A program made the translations under genes and the position numbers. A DNA stretch of 46,874 nt from sequence record PQ850629.1; one strand, given 5' to 3'. Shown here in pieces: positions 3,554 through 18,918 of the stretch (position 1 is the stretch's first letter; each line of letters begins with the position of its first letter). The notes beneath the pieces are model-generated. The model was not told where the DNA came from. It made no database searches and worked only from the letters and a program-made list of their open reading frames with translations. Source of the DNA: Escherichia phage SusanneMuster_Bas79.

Positions 3554-3738
3554 TGAGCGTTTATTTTATTCATGCTGAAGTGCTTGGTGGTGGCGATATT
3601 GTTACCAAGGTTTGCGCGATAGCTACGACATCAAACGCCAATGAAGCGTTTGATTGGTTTTTAGGTCAGGAATTGGTTGCAAAATACGAAATAAAAGGCT
3701 ACGACGTCATCATTGATAAACTTGAAAAGGTGGAGTGA
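3550..3738 (+). CDS. hypothetical protein (about 61 aa; ATG at 3553 likely the true start)
   Basis: ORF track entry; stop/start overlap with neighbours. Confidence 0.4.
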   Translation: MMSVYFIHAEVLGGGDIVTKVCAIATTSNANEAFDWFLGQELVAKYEIKGYDVIIDKLEKVE

Positions 3739-3988: not shown

Positions 3989-5401
3989 ATGTCAAAAATT
4001 GATGCATTAAACGCCTATATACGCGACCGCGTGGCGAACAATAACCGGGCGCTTCAGCAGCAGCGGCTTTGTGCTGGCGGGAAGAATCTGGACCAGAAAC
4101 GTGAGTTCATGTGGAAGGAACTGGGCTACCCGCAGGAAATAACCGCCGAGATGTTCCGCTATGCATACGAGCGACATCCAGCCGCCGCCGCTGGCATTAA
4201 CCGCATTATTAATAAATGCTGGCAGAAATATCCTGAAGTGGTCGAAGATGGCGAGGATGATAAGAACTCAACGCCGTGGGAGTTGTCCATCAACGATATG
4301 ATGAAGCGTGCCTATCCGTTCATCAAAGAGGCCGACAAGCGCAACGCCATCAACAGATACTCCGCTGTTATCCTGCAAATCCGCGATGGTCGCCAGTGGA
4401 GTGAGCCGGTAGACATCACCAAAACCCGCCGCATTAAAGATAAATCCATTGTTCGCTTTATCCCAGTATGGGAAGAGCAACTCCGCGTCAGCGCATGGAA
4501 TAACGATGAAACAAGTGAAGACTACGGCATGCCTGAGATGTACGAATATCAGGAAAGCGCCGTAGAGGATTTCGATAGCGACGGCAAGCCTGAGCGTTCC
4601 GTGCAGATTCATCCTGATCGCATTATCATTCTGGCAGAGGGTAGCTTCGATGGCAGTATGTTCAGTGGCATCCCGATGCTACGTGCTGGCTACAACAGCC
4701 TTATCGACATGGCTAAGGTTTCCGGTAGTTCAGCAGAAGGCTTCCTGAAGAATGCCAGCCGTCAACTGGCTGTTAACTACACGAAGGACAACGTAACGCC
4801 AGCAAGCCTTGCACAGTCAATGGGTGTATCTCAGGATGAGCTTATTGACATCATGAATGACAATATCGAGATGCTGAATTCTGGCATTGACGCTGCACTA
4901 TTTAGCATGGGCGCCGAGACTCAGGTGTTATCCGTAACGCCAGCTGACCCGAAACCAACATGGGAAGTGGCTGCCAACCAGTTCGCTGCATCAATGGCGC
5001 TTCCGTTCACCGTCATTTTCGGGCAGCAAACCGGACGCCTTGCGAGTGATGAAGACAAGATGCAGGAGGCGATGACTGCCAAGCAGCGCCGAGAAACATG
5101 GGTGGATTATGTTATCTCAATGTTCGTTGAGCGCATGATTCAGTTCGGCATCGTCGATAAAGCACCGGAAAATGGCTACAAGGTTAAGTGGGACGACCTG
5201 CTTGCTCCATCAGAGCTGGATAAGGCGGAGTTGCTGTCTAAGCTCGCCACTGCGAACAAGTCGTTCTTTGATGCTGGTCAATCTGCGTTGCTTACCGTCG
5301 ATGAGGCTCGCGGCATGGTTGGTATGGAGCCGATTGAACTTGATGAAAGTTATCGCGAAGACACGCCACCGGAAGATGAAAATGAAGATACTCCGGTTTA
5401 A
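3989..5401 (+). CDS. portal protein
   Basis: 470 aa; position between packaging genes and Mu-F-like head morphogenesis gene; acidic C-terminus; assignment mainly by synteny and size. Confidence 0.65.
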
Positions 5402-6335
5402 CGCAAGACTTCCGCAGCCGCGCATATCGCAGAGCCTGACCGACCCGTTAGGCGCTGCAACCCGCATGTCGAAGATGGACAAGGTGATAACGCGCAAATA
5501 TAAGCAACTCAGGACTCGTGCGCTTGAGTTGTTTCGCACCATTCCGCATAGTCAGACTAACGCAGAATCAAGCGGTCTGTATTTCTATGATTTCAGTAGT
5601 GCGCGCGCCGCTACTTTCATGGATGAGTTGCAGGCGCTGATTGACGAGATTCTGCTGGAAGGTGACGACTTCAGTCACGGCAGGATGTGGGCCAATGTGT
5701 TCATCGGTGATGCGTATCAGGCAGGAACGCAGAAGGCCAACTCTGAACTATCAAGCCTGTCTCCGGTTTATGCCGAGCAAAGGCCTATTGCCGCGATACT
5801 CTACAGTGAGCCATATCTGAATCGGCTGCGGCTTGCGTATACAGCTGGTTACTCGGACTGGCGAGGATTGAGTGATTACTCACGCCAACAACTGGCATCC
5901 GTCATTATGGAAGGCATTGCCCGTGGTGCCAATCCTCGAGATGTTGAGGCTGATATTGTTAAGCGTGTTGACGTGTCACATAGTTACGCGAAGCAGATAG
6001 CGCAGACTGAAATCACCGGAACGCTGCGGCAGGCTAACAGGAGAGAAGTCATTGAGGCTCGCGAGGAATTAGGTATTGAAACGGTGATGCTGTGGCAATC
6101 GGCATTATTGCCTGGTCGAACGAGATTTACTCACGCGGCACGGCACGGGCGGTTTTACGCGCCAGAGGAGATTGACACGTTCTATAGCGAGAATGGCAAT
6201 AGATATAATTGCCACTGTGCACAAGTACCAACATTGATAATGGATGGCAAGCCAGTCATTCTTGAGTCGTCGCAGGAAAGGCTTGATAAGCAGCGTGAAG
6301 CGTGGCAATCAGCCAATAAAAAGCCCTCTAAGTGA
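5376..6335 (+). CDS. head morphogenesis protein (Mu F / SPP1 gp7 family)
   Basis: C-terminal motif [16 protein letters not shown] resembles the conserved R-x-R-x2-H-x3-G core of the Mu F family; ORF track extends upstream to 5172 but overlaps portal, so ATG 5376 (or 5343/5382) is the likely start. Confidence 0.7.
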
Positions 6336-6349
6336 GGGCTTGGTTTTAT
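6322..6349 (+). terminator. rho-independent terminator
   Basis: stem AGCCCTC / GAGGGCT followed by TGGTTTTAT; overlaps stop codon of head morphogenesis gene. Confidence 0.5.
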
Positions 6350-6357
6350 CTTATCAG

Positions 6358-6435
6358 CATACACAGAACGAATATTATTATCGCATACACAGAACGAATA
6401 TTATTATCGCATACACAGAACGAATATTATTATCG
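6358..6435. repeat. tandem direct repeat, 3 x 26 bp (CATACACAGAACGAATATTATTATCG) plus partial flanking copies
   Basis: three perfect consecutive copies read directly from the sequence, in a convergent intergenic region. Confidence 0.9.
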
Positions 6436-6470
6436 CATAGCACAATATCTCTACGACGCTGAATATTGTT

Positions 6471-7079
6471 TTAATCATCAAGTTTCACGCCGGGAATTTT
6501 GCCTGCTGCGATGGCTTCATAAATTAGCTTAGCCTCATCCTCGCGCTTGTAATCTTGCGCTACCATTTCTAATACCGCGCAGATAGATTCAAGTACAGCC
6601 TCATGCTTCCTTTCTGCTTCTGTGCGAAATGGGATGAAAACATCCTTATTGGATGGGGTTATTGCGTAGTAAATCTCACCAGATGGTCTGATAACTATTT
6701 TTTCGCCATCAAGACCAATAACCTTGACTTTTCCCCATGACGTTCCGTTGCTGATATACTCACATTCACACCCAACTGGCGGCAGTCCTTCTCCGTTCCA
6801 TGCTGAATTTTTCGATGCTGCGAGTGCTGCTTTGTATTGCCAATAGGTTACTATCGACTCCTTATGGTCGGAAGATAATTGCGTAGCCCATTCTTCTCCA
6901 TACCAGAAATGCACAAGGCTATTTCCTGTGTGATGTTTCCATGAGAACCCATCATAGTGTGGGTCATTTGTGTCCCATGCGCACAGCGAACCGTCATTAT
7001 CTTGAGTAATTGACAGCGCGTTTTGAGGCCACCAACCACGCTTAGGCAATTCTTGAACTAACAGGTCGATAAGTTTCAT
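6471..7079 (-). CDS. hypothetical protein (202 aa, Trp-rich)
   Basis: long ORF on minus strand, first of a leftward cassette between head and lysis genes. Confidence 0.5.
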   Translation of the reverse strand: MKLIDLLVQELPKRGWWPQNALSITQDNDGSLCAWDTNDPHYDGFSWKHHTGNSLVHFWYGEEWATQLSSDHKESIVTYWQYKAALAASKNSAWNGEGLPPVGCECEYISNGTSWGKVKVIGLDGEKIVIRPSGEIYYAITPSNKDVFIPFRTEAERKHEAVLESICAVLEMVAQDYKREDEAKLIYEAIAAGKIPGVKLDD

Positions 7080-7091
7080 TTTTGTTCTCCG

Positions 7092-7307
7092 TTAATAATT
7101 TGGCTTTACGTCTTTCATTGTTAGTGGCTTCCATCCACTTGCGATTGCAATATCAATACAATCCTCAAGCGTTTCAGCTTTTATTGGCTCACCAACTTCA
7201 CTATCATCAAATTTTCTCTGTATTTGATAGCCATCTACGACATAAAGAATCTCTACAGAACCATGTAGTGTGTGCATCGACTCAAGCCATTGCAGGTGGT
7301 AGCTCAT
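7092..7307 (-). CDS. hypothetical protein (71 aa)
   Basis: ORF with 4-nt overlap to upstream gene. Confidence 0.4.
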   Translation of the reverse strand: MSYHLQWLESMHTLHGSVEILYVVDGYQIQRKFDDSEVGEPIKAETLEDCIDIAIASGWKPLTMKDVKPNY

Positions 7308-7585
7308 TTTGTTCCCCCTAATGCCTTATTAACCGCAGCACGCGCATTATCTAGAGCGCGGCGCTTACTTGATGTTGTCCAGACTTTGCCGGAGTGGTCG
7401 TCGTAGATTTCCAGTAGTTGCTGGAGTGCTGATAGCATGGCCTTGTTATTATCGTGGCAATACCCAACAGAAAAGCCATGCCATAATTCATCCTTTTCTC
7501 TATCGGTCATGTCGCCAAACCCAACCGAATCAAACCATTCAATAAATAATTGGTACACTTCGCGTTGCGTCATTATCAACCTCAC
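7304..7585 (-). CDS. hypothetical protein (ATG at 7573 gives 89 aa)
   Basis: ORF on minus strand; track start is an alternative codon. Confidence 0.4.
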   Translation of the reverse strand: MRLIMTQREVYQLFIEWFDSVGFGDMTDREKDELWHGFSVGYCHDNNKAMLSALQQLLEIYDDHSGKVWTTSSKRRALDNARAAVNKALGGTK

Positions 7586-7725
7586 TTAATATATTCAATA
7601 ATCTCAACTTCACGCATCTGCACCAGACTAAATGGCGCAACCACTTTGCCGCATGGGCGGATTTTGATTTGCTCAAGGCCGAACATTCCGCAGCGTCCGT
7701 TTTCTTTGAATTTGACCATTACCAT
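7582..7725 (-). CDS. hypothetical small protein (47 aa)
   Basis: hand-translated ORF (MVMVKFKENGRCGMFGLEQ...), first gene after the divergent promoter. Confidence 0.3.
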   Translation of the reverse strand: MVMVKFKENGRCGMFGLEQIKIRPCGKVVAPFSLVQMREVEIIEYIK

Positions 7726-7740
7726 AATTTCTTCCTCACT

Positions 7741-7830
7741 CATCGTTTGATGTAGATACTATGCACCACCACTCAATCTACGTCAATAGCCATTGTGATA
7801 GAATTAATCATTATTTGAACAGGAGGCAGA
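7741..7830. promoter_or_regulatory. divergent promoter region with two conserved boxes
   Basis: TGATGTAGAT (7748-7757, reverse orientation) and AATCTACGTCAA (7775-7786); extended -10 TGATAGAAT (7796-7804); AGGAGG before ATG 7831. Confidence 0.45.
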
Positions 7831-8109
7831 ATGAAACTATCGCAACGCGGCATGGAGGTGTTTGGAATTACCGATGCCGTAGATATATCGCCTTACATCA
7901 CCACTGAGACAACACAGAATCAGTTTGATGCGCTGACAAGCCTTGCCACCGACATCGGCATTGACTCGTTCCGCAAATCAACGCTTCTGAAGAAACACAA
8001 TCTCCGCTGCTTCTCATGTGTCGTCGCGCATTTCATCGTGTGGGGTGAGAAGACTGGCGACAAAGCAAAATGCAAGGCTGAAAAAGAGGTTTACTGGTAT
8101 GGCTATTAG
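7831..8109 (+). CDS. degenerate lysozyme-like protein (P22 gp19-type fragment lacking catalytic core), possibly a remnant
   Basis: N-terminus MKLSQRG and segment NQFDALTSLATDIGIDSFRKSTLLKK resemble lysozyme N-terminus and the conserved NQ-[FY]-DAL...STLL-[RK]-K region, but the E-G-x-R-L / TIGYGHT catalytic segment is absent; overlaps next gene by 11 nt. Confidence 0.45.
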   Translation: MKLSQRGMEVFGITDAVDISPYITTETTQNQFDALTSLATDIGIDSFRKSTLLKKHNLRCFSCVVAHFIVWGEKTGDKAKCKAEKEVYWYGY

Positions 8110-17142: not shown

Positions 17143-17312
17143 TTCACCTTAATCATATGCTGTTTTGCAACCTTCAGGCACTCCTCAAAAATGCCACCCT
17201 TCTTTGCGCTCTGATTGCGCTTGTAATACTGAACTGCCGCATCAATTGCCATCTGGTCGATTTCAGGCAGTTTGGTACGTAGTTGTTTTTCAATGAATTG
17301 TTCTGGTGTCAT
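17139..17312 (-). CDS. hypothetical small protein (57 aa)
   Basis: hand-translated MTPEQFIEKQLRTKLPEIDQMAID...; overlaps stop of methyltransferase and start of DnaN-like gene. Confidence 0.35.
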   Translation of the reverse strand: MTPEQFIEKQLRTKLPEIDQMAIDAAVQYYKRNQSAKKGGIFEECLKVAKQHMIKVK

Positions 17313-18112
17313 TAAACGGACCTCATGAATGCTTTAATGAATTCTGCTGCGACTTGTGGAACTATGGCATTGCCATAACCGCGCAATCGTCCCACTCTTG
17401 CGGATACCCCATGAGTTGCCTCGCAAAATCCGCCTGGTATGACTCTAGTTTCCTTATCTGCTCCATGGTTGGGTTTCCATGAATCCCATAAACATGAAGC
17501 CACATCTGGCGATAAAGAGTATCGTTCCTGAATTTTCCGTCCTTTCTGTAAAATGTCTTGCTGAGATCCCCGTAATCCTTCCATCCTCGCGCCGTTGGTG
17601 TCGCCCATCCTCGCGCCAAAGATGATTCTTTTCCTTTCCTGTGGAGAGCCGACGCTGCAAGCTGGCAATACTGACGCCCCGCAGGCGTAGCCTTTGTCTT
17701 CCAGGTTAAGGAATACAAAATCGAGCCAGTGCTTCCCAATTGCTGCTGCAACCTGCTCTCCAAACAGCAATTCAGGCTTGCACTCTCTGATGAGCCTGAG
17801 AAATGCTGGGGCAAGGTGTCGATCGTCGTCAAATCCGAGAGACTTACCGGCAACGCTAAACGGCTGGCAAGGTGGTGATCCTGTCCAGAGTCGAGTGCTT
17901 TCTGGTATTCCTGCCAGCTGGAGTGCAAGGGGCCACCCTCCGATTCCGGCAAAGAAGTGACACTGTGTAAATCCTTCCAGGTCTGAAGGGGTGACTTCGG
18001 TGATTGATCGTTCATCGACATATCCGTAAGGAATTAGTTTATTGTTAATTAATTCACGCAGCCATGCCGCTGCGCCCTTGTCCCACTCATTGTAATAGTG
18101 GACCATCATCAC
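17312..18112 (-). CDS. DNA (cytosine-5)-methyltransferase
   Basis: motif I FAGIGGW, motif IV PPCQPFS, motif VI FGEQV, motif X GNAIVPQV; compact 266 aa. Confidence 0.85.
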   Translation of the reverse strand: MMMVHYYNEWDKGAAAWLRELINNKLIPYGYVDERSITEVTPSDLEGFTQCHFFAGIGGWPLALQLAGIPESTRLWTGSPPCQPFSVAGKSLGFDDDRHLAPAFLRLIRECKPELLFGEQVAAAIGKHWLDFVFLNLEDKGYACGASVLPACSVGSPQERKRIIFGARMGDTNGARMEGLRGSQQDILQKGRKIQERYSLSPDVASCLWDSWKPNHGADKETRVIPGGFCEATHGVSARVGRLRGYGNAIVPQVAAEFIKAFMRSV

Positions 18113-18918
18113 ATCTTCTCCAGAATTGCCATCACCTCGTGAATATCAGCAACAGGAATCTGGATAAACTCCTCATTCTCTGCCACTACATGACCAGCAG
18201 GAAGAATAACGTGGTCAGCTGGCTTCAGTAACTCAATCAGTCGGTCTACTGGCTTAATCTTTTTCGACTTAAGCACCTTCGCCGTTACCTTATCCTTGCC
18301 TTGCGCCTTCGCTTCTTCGACTGCCTCGTCGATAACTTTAACCGCATCATCGCCATGTTCGCGAGTTACTGCTACGGCATTTGCATAGCTGATTTGCCCT
18401 GCACTGATTCGCGCTTTTACTTCGGCTGGCACATCACCCAGTGACAGGTGCATCTGCACGTCAGAAACTGAGCGCCCTACCTTCTTGGCGATTTCCTCGT
18501 TGGTCCAGCCAAAACCCTTCAGTCGCGTGTAAGCCTTTGCGCGTTCAAACGGGTCAAGCTGCTTACCCTGACTGGACGACACCATGAAGGCGATTTTATC
18601 TGCTTCGCCTCCTGTGAAATCCTTGCACTCAATACGAACAATTGGTGCGCCACGCTCAATGGCACGCAACGCTCCGAGATAGCGATGCTGACCATCAAGA
18701 ATGCGGATTCCCTTCTCGTCTGGAATAACTGTTAATGCTGGCAATGGCTGACCTGACTCCCAGCACTGCGCGAAATACTCCACATGCTGCTCATCTGCTT
18801 CGCGGATGTTGTATCCTGGTTCCAGATAGATTTGCTCAACTGGCACGAGATATGTCTTGTTTACCGCGATTCCGTTGCGCGTTTCTTTGTCTGAATAGAT
18901 TTTGCTTAGTGTTTTCAT
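18109..18918 (-). CDS. ParB/Srx-domain protein (ParB-like nuclease domain)
   Basis: N-terminal ILDGQHRYLGALRA (ParB box GxxRxxA), Lys/Ala-rich linker, C-terminal domain; 4-nt overlap with methyltransferase gene. Confidence 0.7.
   Translation of the reverse strand: MKTLSKIYSDKETRNGIAVNKTYLVPVEQIYLEPGYNIREADEQHVEYFAQCWESGQPLPALTVIPDEKGIRILDGQHRYLGALRAIERGAPIVRIECKDFTGGEADKIAFMVSSSQGKQLDPFERAKAYTRLKGFGWTNEEIAKKVGRSVSDVQMHLSLGDVPAEVKARISAGQISYANAVAVTREHGDDAVKVIDEAVEEAKAQGKDKVTAKVLKSKKIKPVDRLIELLKPADHVILPAGHVVAENEEFIQIPVADIHEVMAILEKM

What the first reader, a model, noticed from the sequence alone, without database searches (positions are those of the whole stretch)
6358..6435. Perfect 26-bp x 3 tandem repeat in a convergent intergenic region
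Three identical consecutive copies of CATACACAGAACGAATATTATTATCG, with partial copies on each side, lie just downstream of the head morphogenesis terminator and the 3' end of a leftward cassette. Perfect identity implies recent expansion or selection. Such arrays can be protein-binding arrays (a ParB-like protein is encoded elsewhere in the window), recombination hotspots or copy-number-variable sites.
Basis: seen in the sequence. Interest (0 to 1): 0.45.

Follow-up and report, generated by a model that had tools for sequence, protein, structure and literature searches.

The report
Recent triplication inside hidden phage microgene
The perfect 26-bp x3 repeat is real, but it is a one-off, recent slippage duplication found in no related phage, and it lies at the 3' end of a conserved, unannotated 26-codon membrane-peptide gene rather than in empty intergenic DNA, with no sign of being a protein-binding array.

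Summary
Three identical 26-bp units lie at 6358-6435, and the exact period-26 run is 6357-6439. This is far beyond chance. The window is a complete Skatevirus-type E. coli siphophage genome, collinear with BASEL phage Bas78. Every relative that has this sequence carries exactly one unit: 53 GenBank records, about 25 distinct IMG/VR and BASEL alleles, and a phage contig in a Pantoea assembly. In those relatives a 5-bp direct repeat (GCATA) brackets the unit. The array is therefore a private, recent +52-bp tandem expansion of the slippage or microhomology type. It is not a conserved iteron or ParB array, and the unit occurs nowhere else in the genome. The DNA is not truly intergenic. The minus strand carries an unannotated small ORF coding for MIKTIFSVVEILCYAIIIFVLCMLIR, whose start overlaps the stop of the upstream 202-aa ORF. 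Its substitution pattern indicates coding: 21 synonymous changes against 9.2 expected, with 0 of 20,000 randomisations reaching that number. The expansion creates an immediate stop, so the peptide C-terminus changes from ...CMLIR to ...CMR. It also moves the stop codon from 4 nt to 62 nt upstream of a bidirectional terminator. The most likely effect is near-neutral. Interest is modest, and the hidden microgene is the more useful by-product.

The parts
6357..6439 (.). It is a net +52 bp relative to every relative.
   Evidence: single copy in relatives
6357..6361 (.). GCATA microhomology, repeated at 6383, 6409 and 6435-6439. In single-copy relatives two GCATA copies 26 bp apart bracket the unit (...TTATCA[GCATA]CACAG...TTATC[GCATA]GCACA...), which is the likely slippage substrate.
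   Evidence: alignment A1; sequences; the repeat finder family D1 of 31-nt copies
6404..6478 (-). Unannotated small ORF. In this phage it has 24 codons plus a stop and encodes MIKTIFSVVEILCYAIIIFVLCMR*. In relatives it has 26 codons ending ...CMLIR*. The ATG at 6478-6476 overlaps the end of the upstream ORF (GATGATTAA). Codons 15-23 lie in the first repeat unit, and the second unit supplies CGA TAA.
   Evidence: coding signature; distribution; GRAVY 2.0-2.2
6342..6403 (-). 62-nt 3' UTR created by the expansion: the rest of unit 2, unit 3 and the original 16-nt tail. In single-copy relatives only 4 nt separate the small-ORF stop codon from the terminator stem.
   Evidence: sequence downstream of the stop; single-copy alleles
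6316..6348 (.). Bidirectional intrinsic terminator: A-tract, hairpin AAGCCCTC-TAAGT-GAGGGCTT (6321-6341), T-tract. The head-gene stop codon TGA (6333-6335) lies in the loop and 3' arm.
   Evidence: detected on both strands; annotated in phages Skate and ASO78B, in both orientations in ASO78B; hairpin kept in the 1x and 3x folds; different stem at the same place in the distant clade
6471..7079 (-). 202-aa ORF of unknown function (phrog_7798). It is the last annotated gene of the leftward cassette 7743..6471. Its conserved C-terminus ...EAIAAGKIPGVKLDD* overlaps the small-ORF start.
5382..6335 (+). Head morphogenesis gene, convergent with the leftward cassette.

Best explanation
The array is a recent tandem triplication private to this lineage. 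It is not a functional repeat array. In the ancestral single-copy state, still present in all sampled relatives, a 26-bp segment is bracketed by the 5-bp direct repeat GCATA, with further imperfect homology (TTATC to the left, CACA to the right). Slipped-strand mispairing during replication, or microhomology-mediated unequal exchange or repair, between these repeats made a 26-bp duplication. The resulting 31-bp perfect repeat then expanded once more, giving +52 bp. The segment is the 3' end of a small, conserved, unannotated minus-strand gene for a 26-residue single-helix hydrophobic peptide. That gene is probably translated by coupling to the upstream 202-aa ORF. Because 26 is not a multiple of 3, the second unit is read out of frame and gives a stop at once (CGA TAA). 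The peptide therefore keeps residues 1-23 and its terminal Arg (...CMLIR becomes ...CMR). This is probably why the mutation was tolerated. A side effect is that the stop codon moves from 4 nt to 62 nt upstream of the bidirectional terminator. Shown here: the array, its uniqueness, the single-copy ancestor with flanking microhomology, the conserved ORF with a coding substitution pattern, and the new stop. Inferred: the slippage mechanism, translation of the ORF, and near-neutrality.
For: The array is exact and non-random. Bas78, Bas77 and Bas80 have one unit and identical flanks. Fifty-three GenBank relatives spanning the site match 113-129 nt for a 165-181-nt query, which means one unit. All IMG/VR loci with the sequence have one unit. 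The unit-unit junction is absent from IMG/VR, and its 18-mer hits in metagenomes are unrelated chance matches. Comparable arrays are rare in relatives, with one in 531 kb. GCATA brackets the unit in single-copy alleles. For the small ORF: 24 of 25 distinct 81-nt alleles from 55 loci keep it open, the exception being the Bas77 frameshift. There are 21 synonymous and 17 conservative nonsynonymous distinct substitutions, against 9.2 +/- 2.3 synonymous expected, and 0 of 20,000 randomisations reach 21. The other five frames give 6-12 synonymous. There are no nonsense changes, and one TAA-to-TGA stop swap. Codon-position identity is 0.974/0.985/0.922. A diverged homologue, MIKTIFSIIEILCYAIIIFVVCMMLR, occurs in a clade with only 64% head-protein identity and a different terminator stem. 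Where another gene is inserted upstream (L013, L023), the ORF stays start/stop-coupled to it through an ATGA overlap. Other phages carry different micro-ORFs in the same slot. The window allele translates to MIKTIFSVVEILCYAIIIFVLCMR*. The shortest CDS annotated in Bas78 is 96 nt, so an 81-nt ORF is shorter than any gene annotated there.
Against: There is no direct evidence of translation. Most alleles lack a Shine-Dalgarno sequence (anti-SD duplex -1.7 kcal/mol), so expression would depend on coupling. Bas77 has a 1-nt insertion that frameshifts the ORF after codon 3, so the peptide is dispensable at least there. Third codon positions are much more conserved (0.92) than in the head gene (0.63). 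An additional nucleotide-level constraint, or recombinational homogenisation, is therefore also acting and is unexplained. Neutrality is assumed, not measured. The copy number rests on one assembly, because reads were not available. The peptide has no Pfam or PHROG family.
Confidence: 0.75

Rival explanations
1. The origin is the same, but the expansion is adaptive. It changes gene expression at the convergent junction by moving the small-ORF stop codon away from the bidirectional terminator, from 4 nt to 62 nt. A terminating ribosome then no longer occludes the hairpin, so leftward transcripts terminate efficiently instead of reading antisense into the head and portal genes. Alternatively, the benefit comes from the shortened peptide C-terminus.
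For: The geometry is shown: 4 nt in all single-copy alleles against 62 nt here. The hairpin is intact in both folds. In E. coli the lambda tR2 terminator is almost fully repressed when the stop codon is 8-9 bp upstream, and reaches about 0.9 efficiency beyond 30 bp (PMC4824070). The stop codon adjacent to the hairpin is kept in a distant clade that has a different stem.
Against: Only one genome carries the expansion. More than 75 relatives keep the tight arrangement, which argues that the tight arrangement is the favoured state. Translation of the small ORF is unproven. There are no expression or fitness data.
Confidence: 0.12
2. The array is a set of binding sites for a phage DNA-binding protein, such as the ParB-like protein. 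It would work like a centromere or iteron cluster, or as a nucleation site.
For: A ParB-like HTH protein is encoded in the genome. The repeats are regularly spaced. Each unit contains GAATATT, with a fourth near-copy at 6461-6470.
Against: Relatives with the same ParB-like gene have a single unit. Neither the unit nor its 18-nt core occurs elsewhere, even with up to 3 mismatches. There is no parS-like palindrome. The ParB-like gene is 11.7 kb away and is paired with a C5 methylase rather than a ParA. The conservation of the unit is explained by coding constraint in the minus-strand frame.
Confidence: 0.03
3. The three copies are an assembly or sequencing artefact, or a minority variant that arose during laboratory propagation and was captured in the consensus.
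For: Perfect identity, presence in a single genome only, and no reads available to check.
Against: The whole periodic run is 83 bp, shorter than a standard short read, so assemblers rarely miscount it (inference). The insertion is an exact multiple of the unit and the flanks are clean. A laboratory-arisen variant would still be a real slippage product.
Confidence: 0.05
4. The conserved island hit by the repeat is primarily a non-coding RNA or cis element, such as a 3'UTR-derived sRNA or an mRNA-stability hairpin plus terminator. On this view the small ORF is incidental.
For: Synonymous sites of the ORF are far more conserved than those of the neighbouring genes. The whole stretch of about 6321-6520 is the best-conserved segment locally. 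RNAalifold draws a 21-pair hairpin inside the ORF whose 3' arm is the repeat unit.
Against: There is no covariation: no pair within that hairpin changes on both sides, and the observed values equal the shuffles. The hairpin is not more stable than shuffles (z -1.6 to -1.9), and the distant homologue folds differently. No Rfam family matches. The substitution pattern is frame-specific.
Confidence: 0.1

Closest known systems
Tandem duplications and VNTRs formed by slipped-strand mispairing or microhomology-mediated exchange at short direct repeats (general mutational class; stated from established knowledge)
   Same: Head-to-tail identical units. The unexpanded allele is present in close relatives. 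A short direct repeat (GCATA) brackets the unit in that allele. The insertion is an exact multiple of the unit.
   Different: No population-level copy-number polymorphism has been shown. Only one expanded allele is known.
Centromere-like or iteron arrays bound by ParB/KorB-type or initiator proteins, such as F sopC 43-bp repeats, P1/N15 parS sites and lambda ori iterons (from established knowledge)
   Same: Regularly spaced direct repeats of a few tens of bp in a genome that encodes a ParB-like HTH protein.
   Different: The array is absent from all relatives that carry the same protein. It has no palindromic core. It is not adjacent to the par-like or replication genes. There are no dispersed copies. 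The repeated sequence is coding DNA on the other strand.
Small hydrophobic single-helix proteins of enterobacteria and their phages: small inner-membrane regulators and type I toxin peptides of about 18-35 aa, and the unannotated microproteins catalogued in surveys such as PMC11364881 and PMC11188072 (titles and abstracts seen)
   Same: It is 26 aa, with one hydrophobic stretch (GRAVY 2.19) flanked by Lys3 and a C-terminal Arg. It is missed by annotation and is conserved within a narrow lineage.
   Different: It has no sequence similarity to any Pfam or PHROG family. No antisense RNA or toxin-type regulation is evident. It is the last gene of an operon, start/stop-coupled to the upstream gene, and its function is unknown.
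Bidirectional intrinsic terminators between convergent operons, and ribosome-repressed terminators close to stop codons (Li et al. 2016, PMC4824070)
   Same: An A-tract, GC hairpin and T-tract detected on both strands. Both convergent ORFs stop in the hairpin or within 4 nt of it in the single-copy state.
   Different: In this phage the expansion puts 62 nt between the leftward stop codon and the hairpin. No termination measurements exist.

Membership tests
Slippage-type tandem duplication (VNTR-like) | Identical head-to-tail units with no spacer | tested here: met
   Exact period-26 run at 6357-6439
Slippage-type tandem duplication (VNTR-like) | Unexpanded (single-unit) allele at the orthologous site in close relatives | tested here: met
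   Bas78, Bas77 and Bas80; 53 GenBank records; IMG/VR loci
Slippage-type tandem duplication (VNTR-like) | Short direct repeat flanking the unit in the unexpanded allele | tested here: met
   GCATA...26 bp...GCATA, with extra imperfect homology
Slippage-type tandem duplication (VNTR-like) | Copy-number polymorphism among isolates or within a lysate | not testable with these tools
   No reads were available, and no second expanded allele was found in the public collections
ParB/iteron-type protein-binding repeat array | Array conserved in relatives that encode the binding protein | tested here: not met
   Bas78 encodes the ParB-like protein but has one unit. All other relatives also have one unit or none.
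ParB/iteron-type protein-binding repeat array | Palindromic or half-site core; further copies elsewhere or next to the par/rep genes | tested here: not met
   Only the trivial AATATT palindrome is present. There are no other copies of the unit or its 18-nt core with up to 3 mismatches. The ParB-like gene lies at 18109-18918, 11.7 kb away.
ParB/iteron-type protein-binding repeat array | Specific protein binding | not testable with these tools
   Needs EMSA or ChIP
Protein-coding small ORF | Open frame with start and stop maintained across diverged relatives | tested here: met
   24 of 25 distinct alleles are open (Bas77 is frameshifted). There is one stop-to-Gln change that extends the ORF by 2 codons and one TAA-to-TGA swap. 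A diverged copy occurs in a distant clade.
Protein-coding small ORF | Frame-specific excess of synonymous or conservative substitutions | tested here: met
   21 synonymous against 9.2 +/- 2.3 expected, with 0 of 20,000 randomisations reaching 21. The other five frames give 6-12. Codon position 3 is the least conserved.
Protein-coding small ORF | Ribosome-binding site or translational coupling | tested here: inconclusive
   Most alleles have no SD (-1.7 kcal/mol), while L044 has AGGAG (-6.9). The start overlaps the upstream stop (ATGATTAA or ATGA) in all contexts.
Protein-coding small ORF | Detected translation product | not testable with these tools
   Needs Ribo-seq, tagging or mass spectrometry
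Type I toxin / small membrane protein | Single hydrophobic helix long enough to span a membrane | tested here: met
   Residues 4-25 are hydrophobic. GRAVY is 2.19 for the 1x allele and 2.03 for the 3x allele. The only charges are K3, E10 and the C-terminal R.
Type I toxin / small membrane protein | Cognate antisense RNA, toxicity on overexpression, or homology to a known family | tested here: not met
   No Pfam, PHROG or Rfam match. No above-chance promoter signal was found for an antisense transcript. Toxicity is not testable here.
Bidirectional intrinsic terminator | GC-rich hairpin flanked by an A-tract and a T-tract, scoring on both strands | tested here: met
   (both strands, 8 pairs, 5 GC). 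It is annotated independently in Skate and ASO78B. A functionally equivalent hairpin with a different stem occurs in the distant clade.
Bidirectional intrinsic terminator | Termination in vivo | not testable with these tools
   Needs Term-seq or 3' RACE

The most novel reading that the evidence does not exclude
The conserved island between the head operon and the leftward accessory cassette would be a compact regulatory device. In it, a translated 26-codon membrane-microprotein gene ends 4 nt from a bidirectional terminator, while the head gene ends inside the same hairpin. Ribosomes finishing either ORF would therefore gate termination of the convergent transcripts. This phage's triplication would be a natural uncoupling mutant, with the stop codon moved to 62 nt. 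The microprotein itself would be a new phage family restricted to Skatevirus-type phages.
Probability: 0.15. Interest if true: 0.5.

Novelty: new member of a known kind. Interest (0 to 1): 0.3.

Why it matters
The array itself is an ordinary mutational event. Its practical value is as a strain marker and as a natural example of microhomology-primed tandem expansion in a lytic phage. The useful by-product is that a stretch annotated as intergenic in the six related records inspected, and present in 53 GenBank phage records, encodes a conserved 26-residue hydrophobic peptide at the end of an accessory operon. The same slot holds different micro-genes in other phages. This bears on phage annotation, because genes below about 90 nt are systematically missed. 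It also bears on genome-reduction and engineering work on Skatevirus phages. Finally, the single-copy relative Bas78 and this 3x phage form a natural allele pair for testing whether ribosome-terminator proximity matters at a convergent junction.

Tried and rejected
1. ParB or iteron array. Rejected: relatives have one unit, there are no other copies, and there is no palindrome.
2. Known RNA family. Rfam at E<=1 gives only two sub-threshold chance hits.
3. Conserved RNA hairpin inside the island. RNAalifold draws a 21-pair hairpin, but it has no compensatory changes, the observed values equal the shuffles, and z is only -1.6 to -1.9. The distant homologue folds differently.
4. The 3x array as a structured RNA. 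z is -0.73.
5. Promoter creation by the repeat. Only weak 9/12 matches were found, and the count does not exceed the shuffles (6 found against 5.1 expected).
6. Plus-strand ORFs through the array (72 aa and 66 aa; K1M annotates a 31-aa plus-strand ORF). Rejected, because the opposite-strand frames show 7-12 synonymous against 26-31 nonsynonymous changes, and the 52-bp insertion shifts their frames.
7. Recurrent expansion elsewhere. The junction searches found nothing related.
8. E. coli chromosomal or prophage origin. No match in 5,426 E. coli genomes.
They were replaced by tblastn and degenerate DNA patterns, which found only the same phage group.
10. Pfam and PHROG searches for the peptide and the four cassette proteins gave no functional assignment.

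Full report
OBSERVATION. The window contains three identical consecutive copies of CATACACAGAACGAATATTATTATCG at 6358-6435. The exact period-26 run is 6357-6439, which is 83 bp or 3.19 units. TRF extends it with imperfect partial copies to 6351-6444 (3.5 copies, score 170). It is the only strong tandem repeat in the 46.9-kb window. It is far beyond chance. The longest exact periodic run is 57 positions, against a mean of 10.6 and a maximum of 14 in 100 Markov resamples, and no shuffle matches the unit.

CONTEXT. The window is a complete genome collinear from base 1 with BASEL phage SandraMuster_Bas78, in blocks of 89.5-99.5% identity. It belongs to the Skatevirus-type cluster of O16-antigen-dependent small siphoviruses, Bas77-81 (PMC11990801). 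There is no match in E. coli genomes. On the plus strand the head-morphogenesis gene (5382-6335) ends in a hairpin, AAGCCCTC-TAAGT-GAGGGCTT (6321-6341). The hairpin is flanked by an A-tract and a T-tract and scores as an intrinsic terminator on both strands. The same element is annotated as a terminator in phages Skate and ASO78B, in both orientations in ASO78B. On the minus strand a four-gene cassette of unknown function (7743..6471: 53, 93, 71 and 202 aa) runs toward the same hairpin. These proteins hit PHROGs of unknown function or none, and have no Pfam hit.

THE ARRAY IS PRIVATE TO THIS GENOME. Aligned with Bas78, Bas77 and Bas80, the window differs by a clean 52-bp insertion, meaning two extra units, and the flanks are identical to Bas78. 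In GenBank phages, 53 records span the site, and each matches 113-129 nt of a 165-181-nt query span. That is one unit each. The other 86 matching records cover only part of the query; those listed share only the head-gene end and terminator. All IMG/VR loci with the sequence also have one unit. A phage contig in a Pantoea assembly has one as well. The unit-unit junction is absent from IMG/VR. Its 18-mer occurs in JGI metagenomes only in unrelated contexts. Comparable arrays are rare in this phage group, with one 18-bp x 2.6 array in 531 kb of relatives. In every single-copy allele the unit is bracketed by GCATA...GCATA, with additional imperfect homology: TTATCA[GCATA]CACA ... TTATC[GCATA]GCACA. 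That is the classical substrate for slipped-strand or microhomology-mediated tandem duplication. A second step on the resulting 31-bp perfect repeat gives three copies. The mechanism is inferred. According to the Bas78 annotation, the phage encodes exonuclease VIII, SSB and RusA. The neighbourhood is also a hotspot for inserted HNH or zinc-ribbon genes in relatives, so a break-repair route is also possible.

THE DNA IS NOT EMPTY INTERGENIC SEQUENCE. The stretch of about 6321-6520 is the best-conserved segment of the neighbourhood. Mean pairwise identity is 0.93-0.98, against 0.70-0.86 in the head gene and below 0.6 in most of the 202-aa ORF. Some ascertainment bias applies, because the loci were chosen for having the element. 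On the minus strand an ATG overlapping the end of the 202-aa ORF (GATGATTAA) opens a 26-codon frame. It encodes MIKTIFSVVEILCYAIIIFVLCMLIR and ends 4 nt before the terminator stem. Among 25 distinct 81-nt alleles from 55 loci, all but Bas77 keep the frame open. Bas77 has a 1-nt insertion after codon 3. Of the 38 distinct substitutions in codons 2-26, 21 are synonymous. Random placement that keeps the transition/transversion counts expects 9.2 +/- 2.3, and 0 of 20,000 trials reach 21. The other five frames give 6-12 synonymous. No nonsense change occurs. Most amino-acid changes are conservative (V/I/L/A, M/V/L, R/K, I/T), and the exceptions are T4I and C22F. One allele swaps the stop TAA for TGA. 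Codon-position identities are 0.974, 0.985 and 0.922. A diverged copy, MIKTIFSIIEILCYAIIIFVVCMMLR, sits in the same slot in a clade with only 64% head-protein identity and a different terminator stem. In L013 and L023 a 77-aa Cys-rich gene is inserted upstream, and the small ORF is then ATGA-coupled to that gene. Other relatives carry different micro-ORFs in the slot, either Cys-rich peptides of 28-40 aa or an 18-aa hydrophobic peptide. The peptide is one hydrophobic helix (GRAVY 2.19) with K3, E10 and a C-terminal R. It has no Pfam or PHROG family. tblastn finds it in 53 GenBank phage records. None of the six records inspected annotates it, and K1M annotates a plus-strand ORF instead. The shortest CDS annotated in Bas78 is 96 nt, so an 81-nt gene is shorter than any gene annotated there. 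Weak points: most alleles have no Shine-Dalgarno (-1.7 kcal/mol), so translation would rely on coupling. The Bas77 frameshift shows the peptide is dispensable there. There is no expression evidence.

WHAT THE EXPANSION DOES. In the window the ORF (6478..6404) reads through the first unit, and the second unit is out of frame and supplies CGA TAA. The product is MIKTIFSVVEILCYAIIIFVLCMR. Residues 1-23 and the terminal Arg are kept, and only Leu-Ile is lost. The remaining units become a 62-nt 3' UTR (6403..6342) ahead of an unchanged terminator hairpin. The mutation is therefore expected to be tolerated, which fits a near-neutral accident. One possible consequence deserves a test. In E. coli the tR2 terminator is almost fully repressed when a stop codon lies 8-9 bp upstream, and it reaches about 0.9 efficiency beyond 30 bp (PMC4824070). 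If the small ORF is translated, relatives would have a ribosome-repressed leftward terminator and this phage an unrepressed one. This is inference only.

Recent expansion is supported. A ParB-type or other protein-binding array is not supported. The ParB-like protein (HTH_ParB/KorB, 18109-18918 minus, next to a C5 methylase) is also present in Bas78, which has one unit. Neither the unit nor its 18-nt core recurs anywhere. There is no palindrome beyond AATATT. Conservation of the unit is accounted for by coding constraint. A copy-number-variable hotspot is not supported by the public data, though within-lysate variation could not be tested.

OTHER READINGS TRIED. No Rfam family matches. RNAalifold draws a 21-pair hairpin whose 3' arm is the repeat unit, but nothing supports it. 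There are no compensatory pairs, the counts equal the shuffles, z is -1.6 to -1.9, and the distant homologue folds differently. The 3x transcript end is not unusually structured (z -0.73). Promoter-like matches in and around the array are weak and do not exceed the shuffles. One feature remains unexplained. Synonymous sites of the small ORF (0.92), and to a lesser degree of the last 17 codons of the 202-aa ORF (0.75), are more conserved than those of the head gene (0.63). Either a nucleotide-level constraint or recombinational homogenisation of this module junction acts in addition to coding selection.

VERDICT. This is a real, non-random, but ordinary feature: a recent, private tandem triplication of the slippage type. 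It is not a functional repeat array. Its location is more interesting than the array itself, because it lies at the 3' end of a conserved, unannotated 26-codon membrane-peptide gene that abuts a bidirectional terminator. Confidence in the main explanation is 0.75 and interest is 0.3. Genome-reduction work on the Skatevirus seszw found 65% of its genes removable (PMC9825161), which shows that much of such a genome is dispensable in the laboratory. seszw itself lacks this small ORF.

Noticed in passing
window 6404-6478 (-); L001 3550-3627; L044 3962-4039; L116 3642-3719: An unannotated 26-codon hydrophobic ORF (MIKTIFSVVEILCYAIIIFVLCMLIR) is conserved in 53 GenBank Skatevirus-type phage records, with a frame-specific excess of synonymous changes. 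It is absent from the annotation of the six records inspected.
   Followed up: yes
loci L009-L072, first ~150 nt after the head-gene stop: The slot between the '...AIAAGKIPGVKLDD' gene and the terminator holds different micro-genes in different phages. They include a 28-aa Cys-rich peptide (MIDMWPICKHCGRMCLTSWCRKCDKPSK), a 39-40-aa zinc-ribbon-like peptide (MIIICVACKHEHH...CPKCGCGGFIKKR), an 18-aa hydrophobic peptide and a TM protein of at least 64 aa.
   Followed up: partly
window 6474-6520 (-) and the equivalent region in L012, L018, L033, L041, L044, L056, L116: The C-terminal motif [IY]YDAIAAGKIPGVKL[DE][DG] is conserved on otherwise unrelated N-terminal bodies of the ORF upstream of the small gene. 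It is also present in the distant clade with diverged nucleotides, so the conservation is at the protein level and not only a recombination linker.
   Followed up: no
window 6321-6520: Synonymous (third-codon) positions of the small ORF (0.92 pairwise identity) and of the last 17 codons of the 202-aa ORF (0.75) are more conserved than those of the head gene (0.63). No RNA structure or known RNA family explains this.
   Followed up: partly
L013 and L023, about 4043-4340; L003 4215-4700: Extra genes are inserted at this junction in relatives. In L013 and L023 a 77-aa CxxC...CxxC protein sits between the 202-aa ORF and the small ORF, flanked by repeated GATGATTAA-type start/stop junctions, with only sub-threshold zinc-ribbon Pfam hits. 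In Bas80 an HNH endonuclease lies next to the 202-aa ORF.
   Followed up: partly
window 6321-6341 compared with L035-L072 and L113 (GCCGCC-TGAT/ATCA-GGCGGC): The head-gene stop codon lies inside the loop or 3' arm of the bidirectional terminator in both clades, although the stems differ completely. The stop-in-hairpin arrangement is conserved while the sequence is not.
   Followed up: partly
L002 (Bas77) 3618-3624, equivalent to window ~6469-6470: Bas77 has a 1-nt insertion (GTCTTTAA against GTTTTAA) that frameshifts the small ORF after codon 3, giving a natural knockout allele.
   Followed up: partly
window 7831-8109 (+) and 8018/8099-8563 (+): The first ORF of the lysis cassette (92 aa) matches only positions 55-114 of 125 of the Pfam Phage_lysozyme profile, so it looks like a lysozyme fragment. 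It overlaps the start of the second ORF annotated as endolysin, which gave no Pfam hit at E<=0.01.
   Followed up: no
window 17312-18918 (-): The ParB-like protein (HTH_ParB/KorB domains) is immediately upstream of a C5 cytosine DNA methylase, and Bas78 annotates no ParA partner. This looks like a ParB-methylase pair rather than a partition locus.
   Followed up: partly
L065 1144-1189: This is the only other sizeable tandem repeat in 531 kb of related loci: 18 bp x 2.6 copies (CCTCTTTGCATGGCTATA).
   Followed up: no
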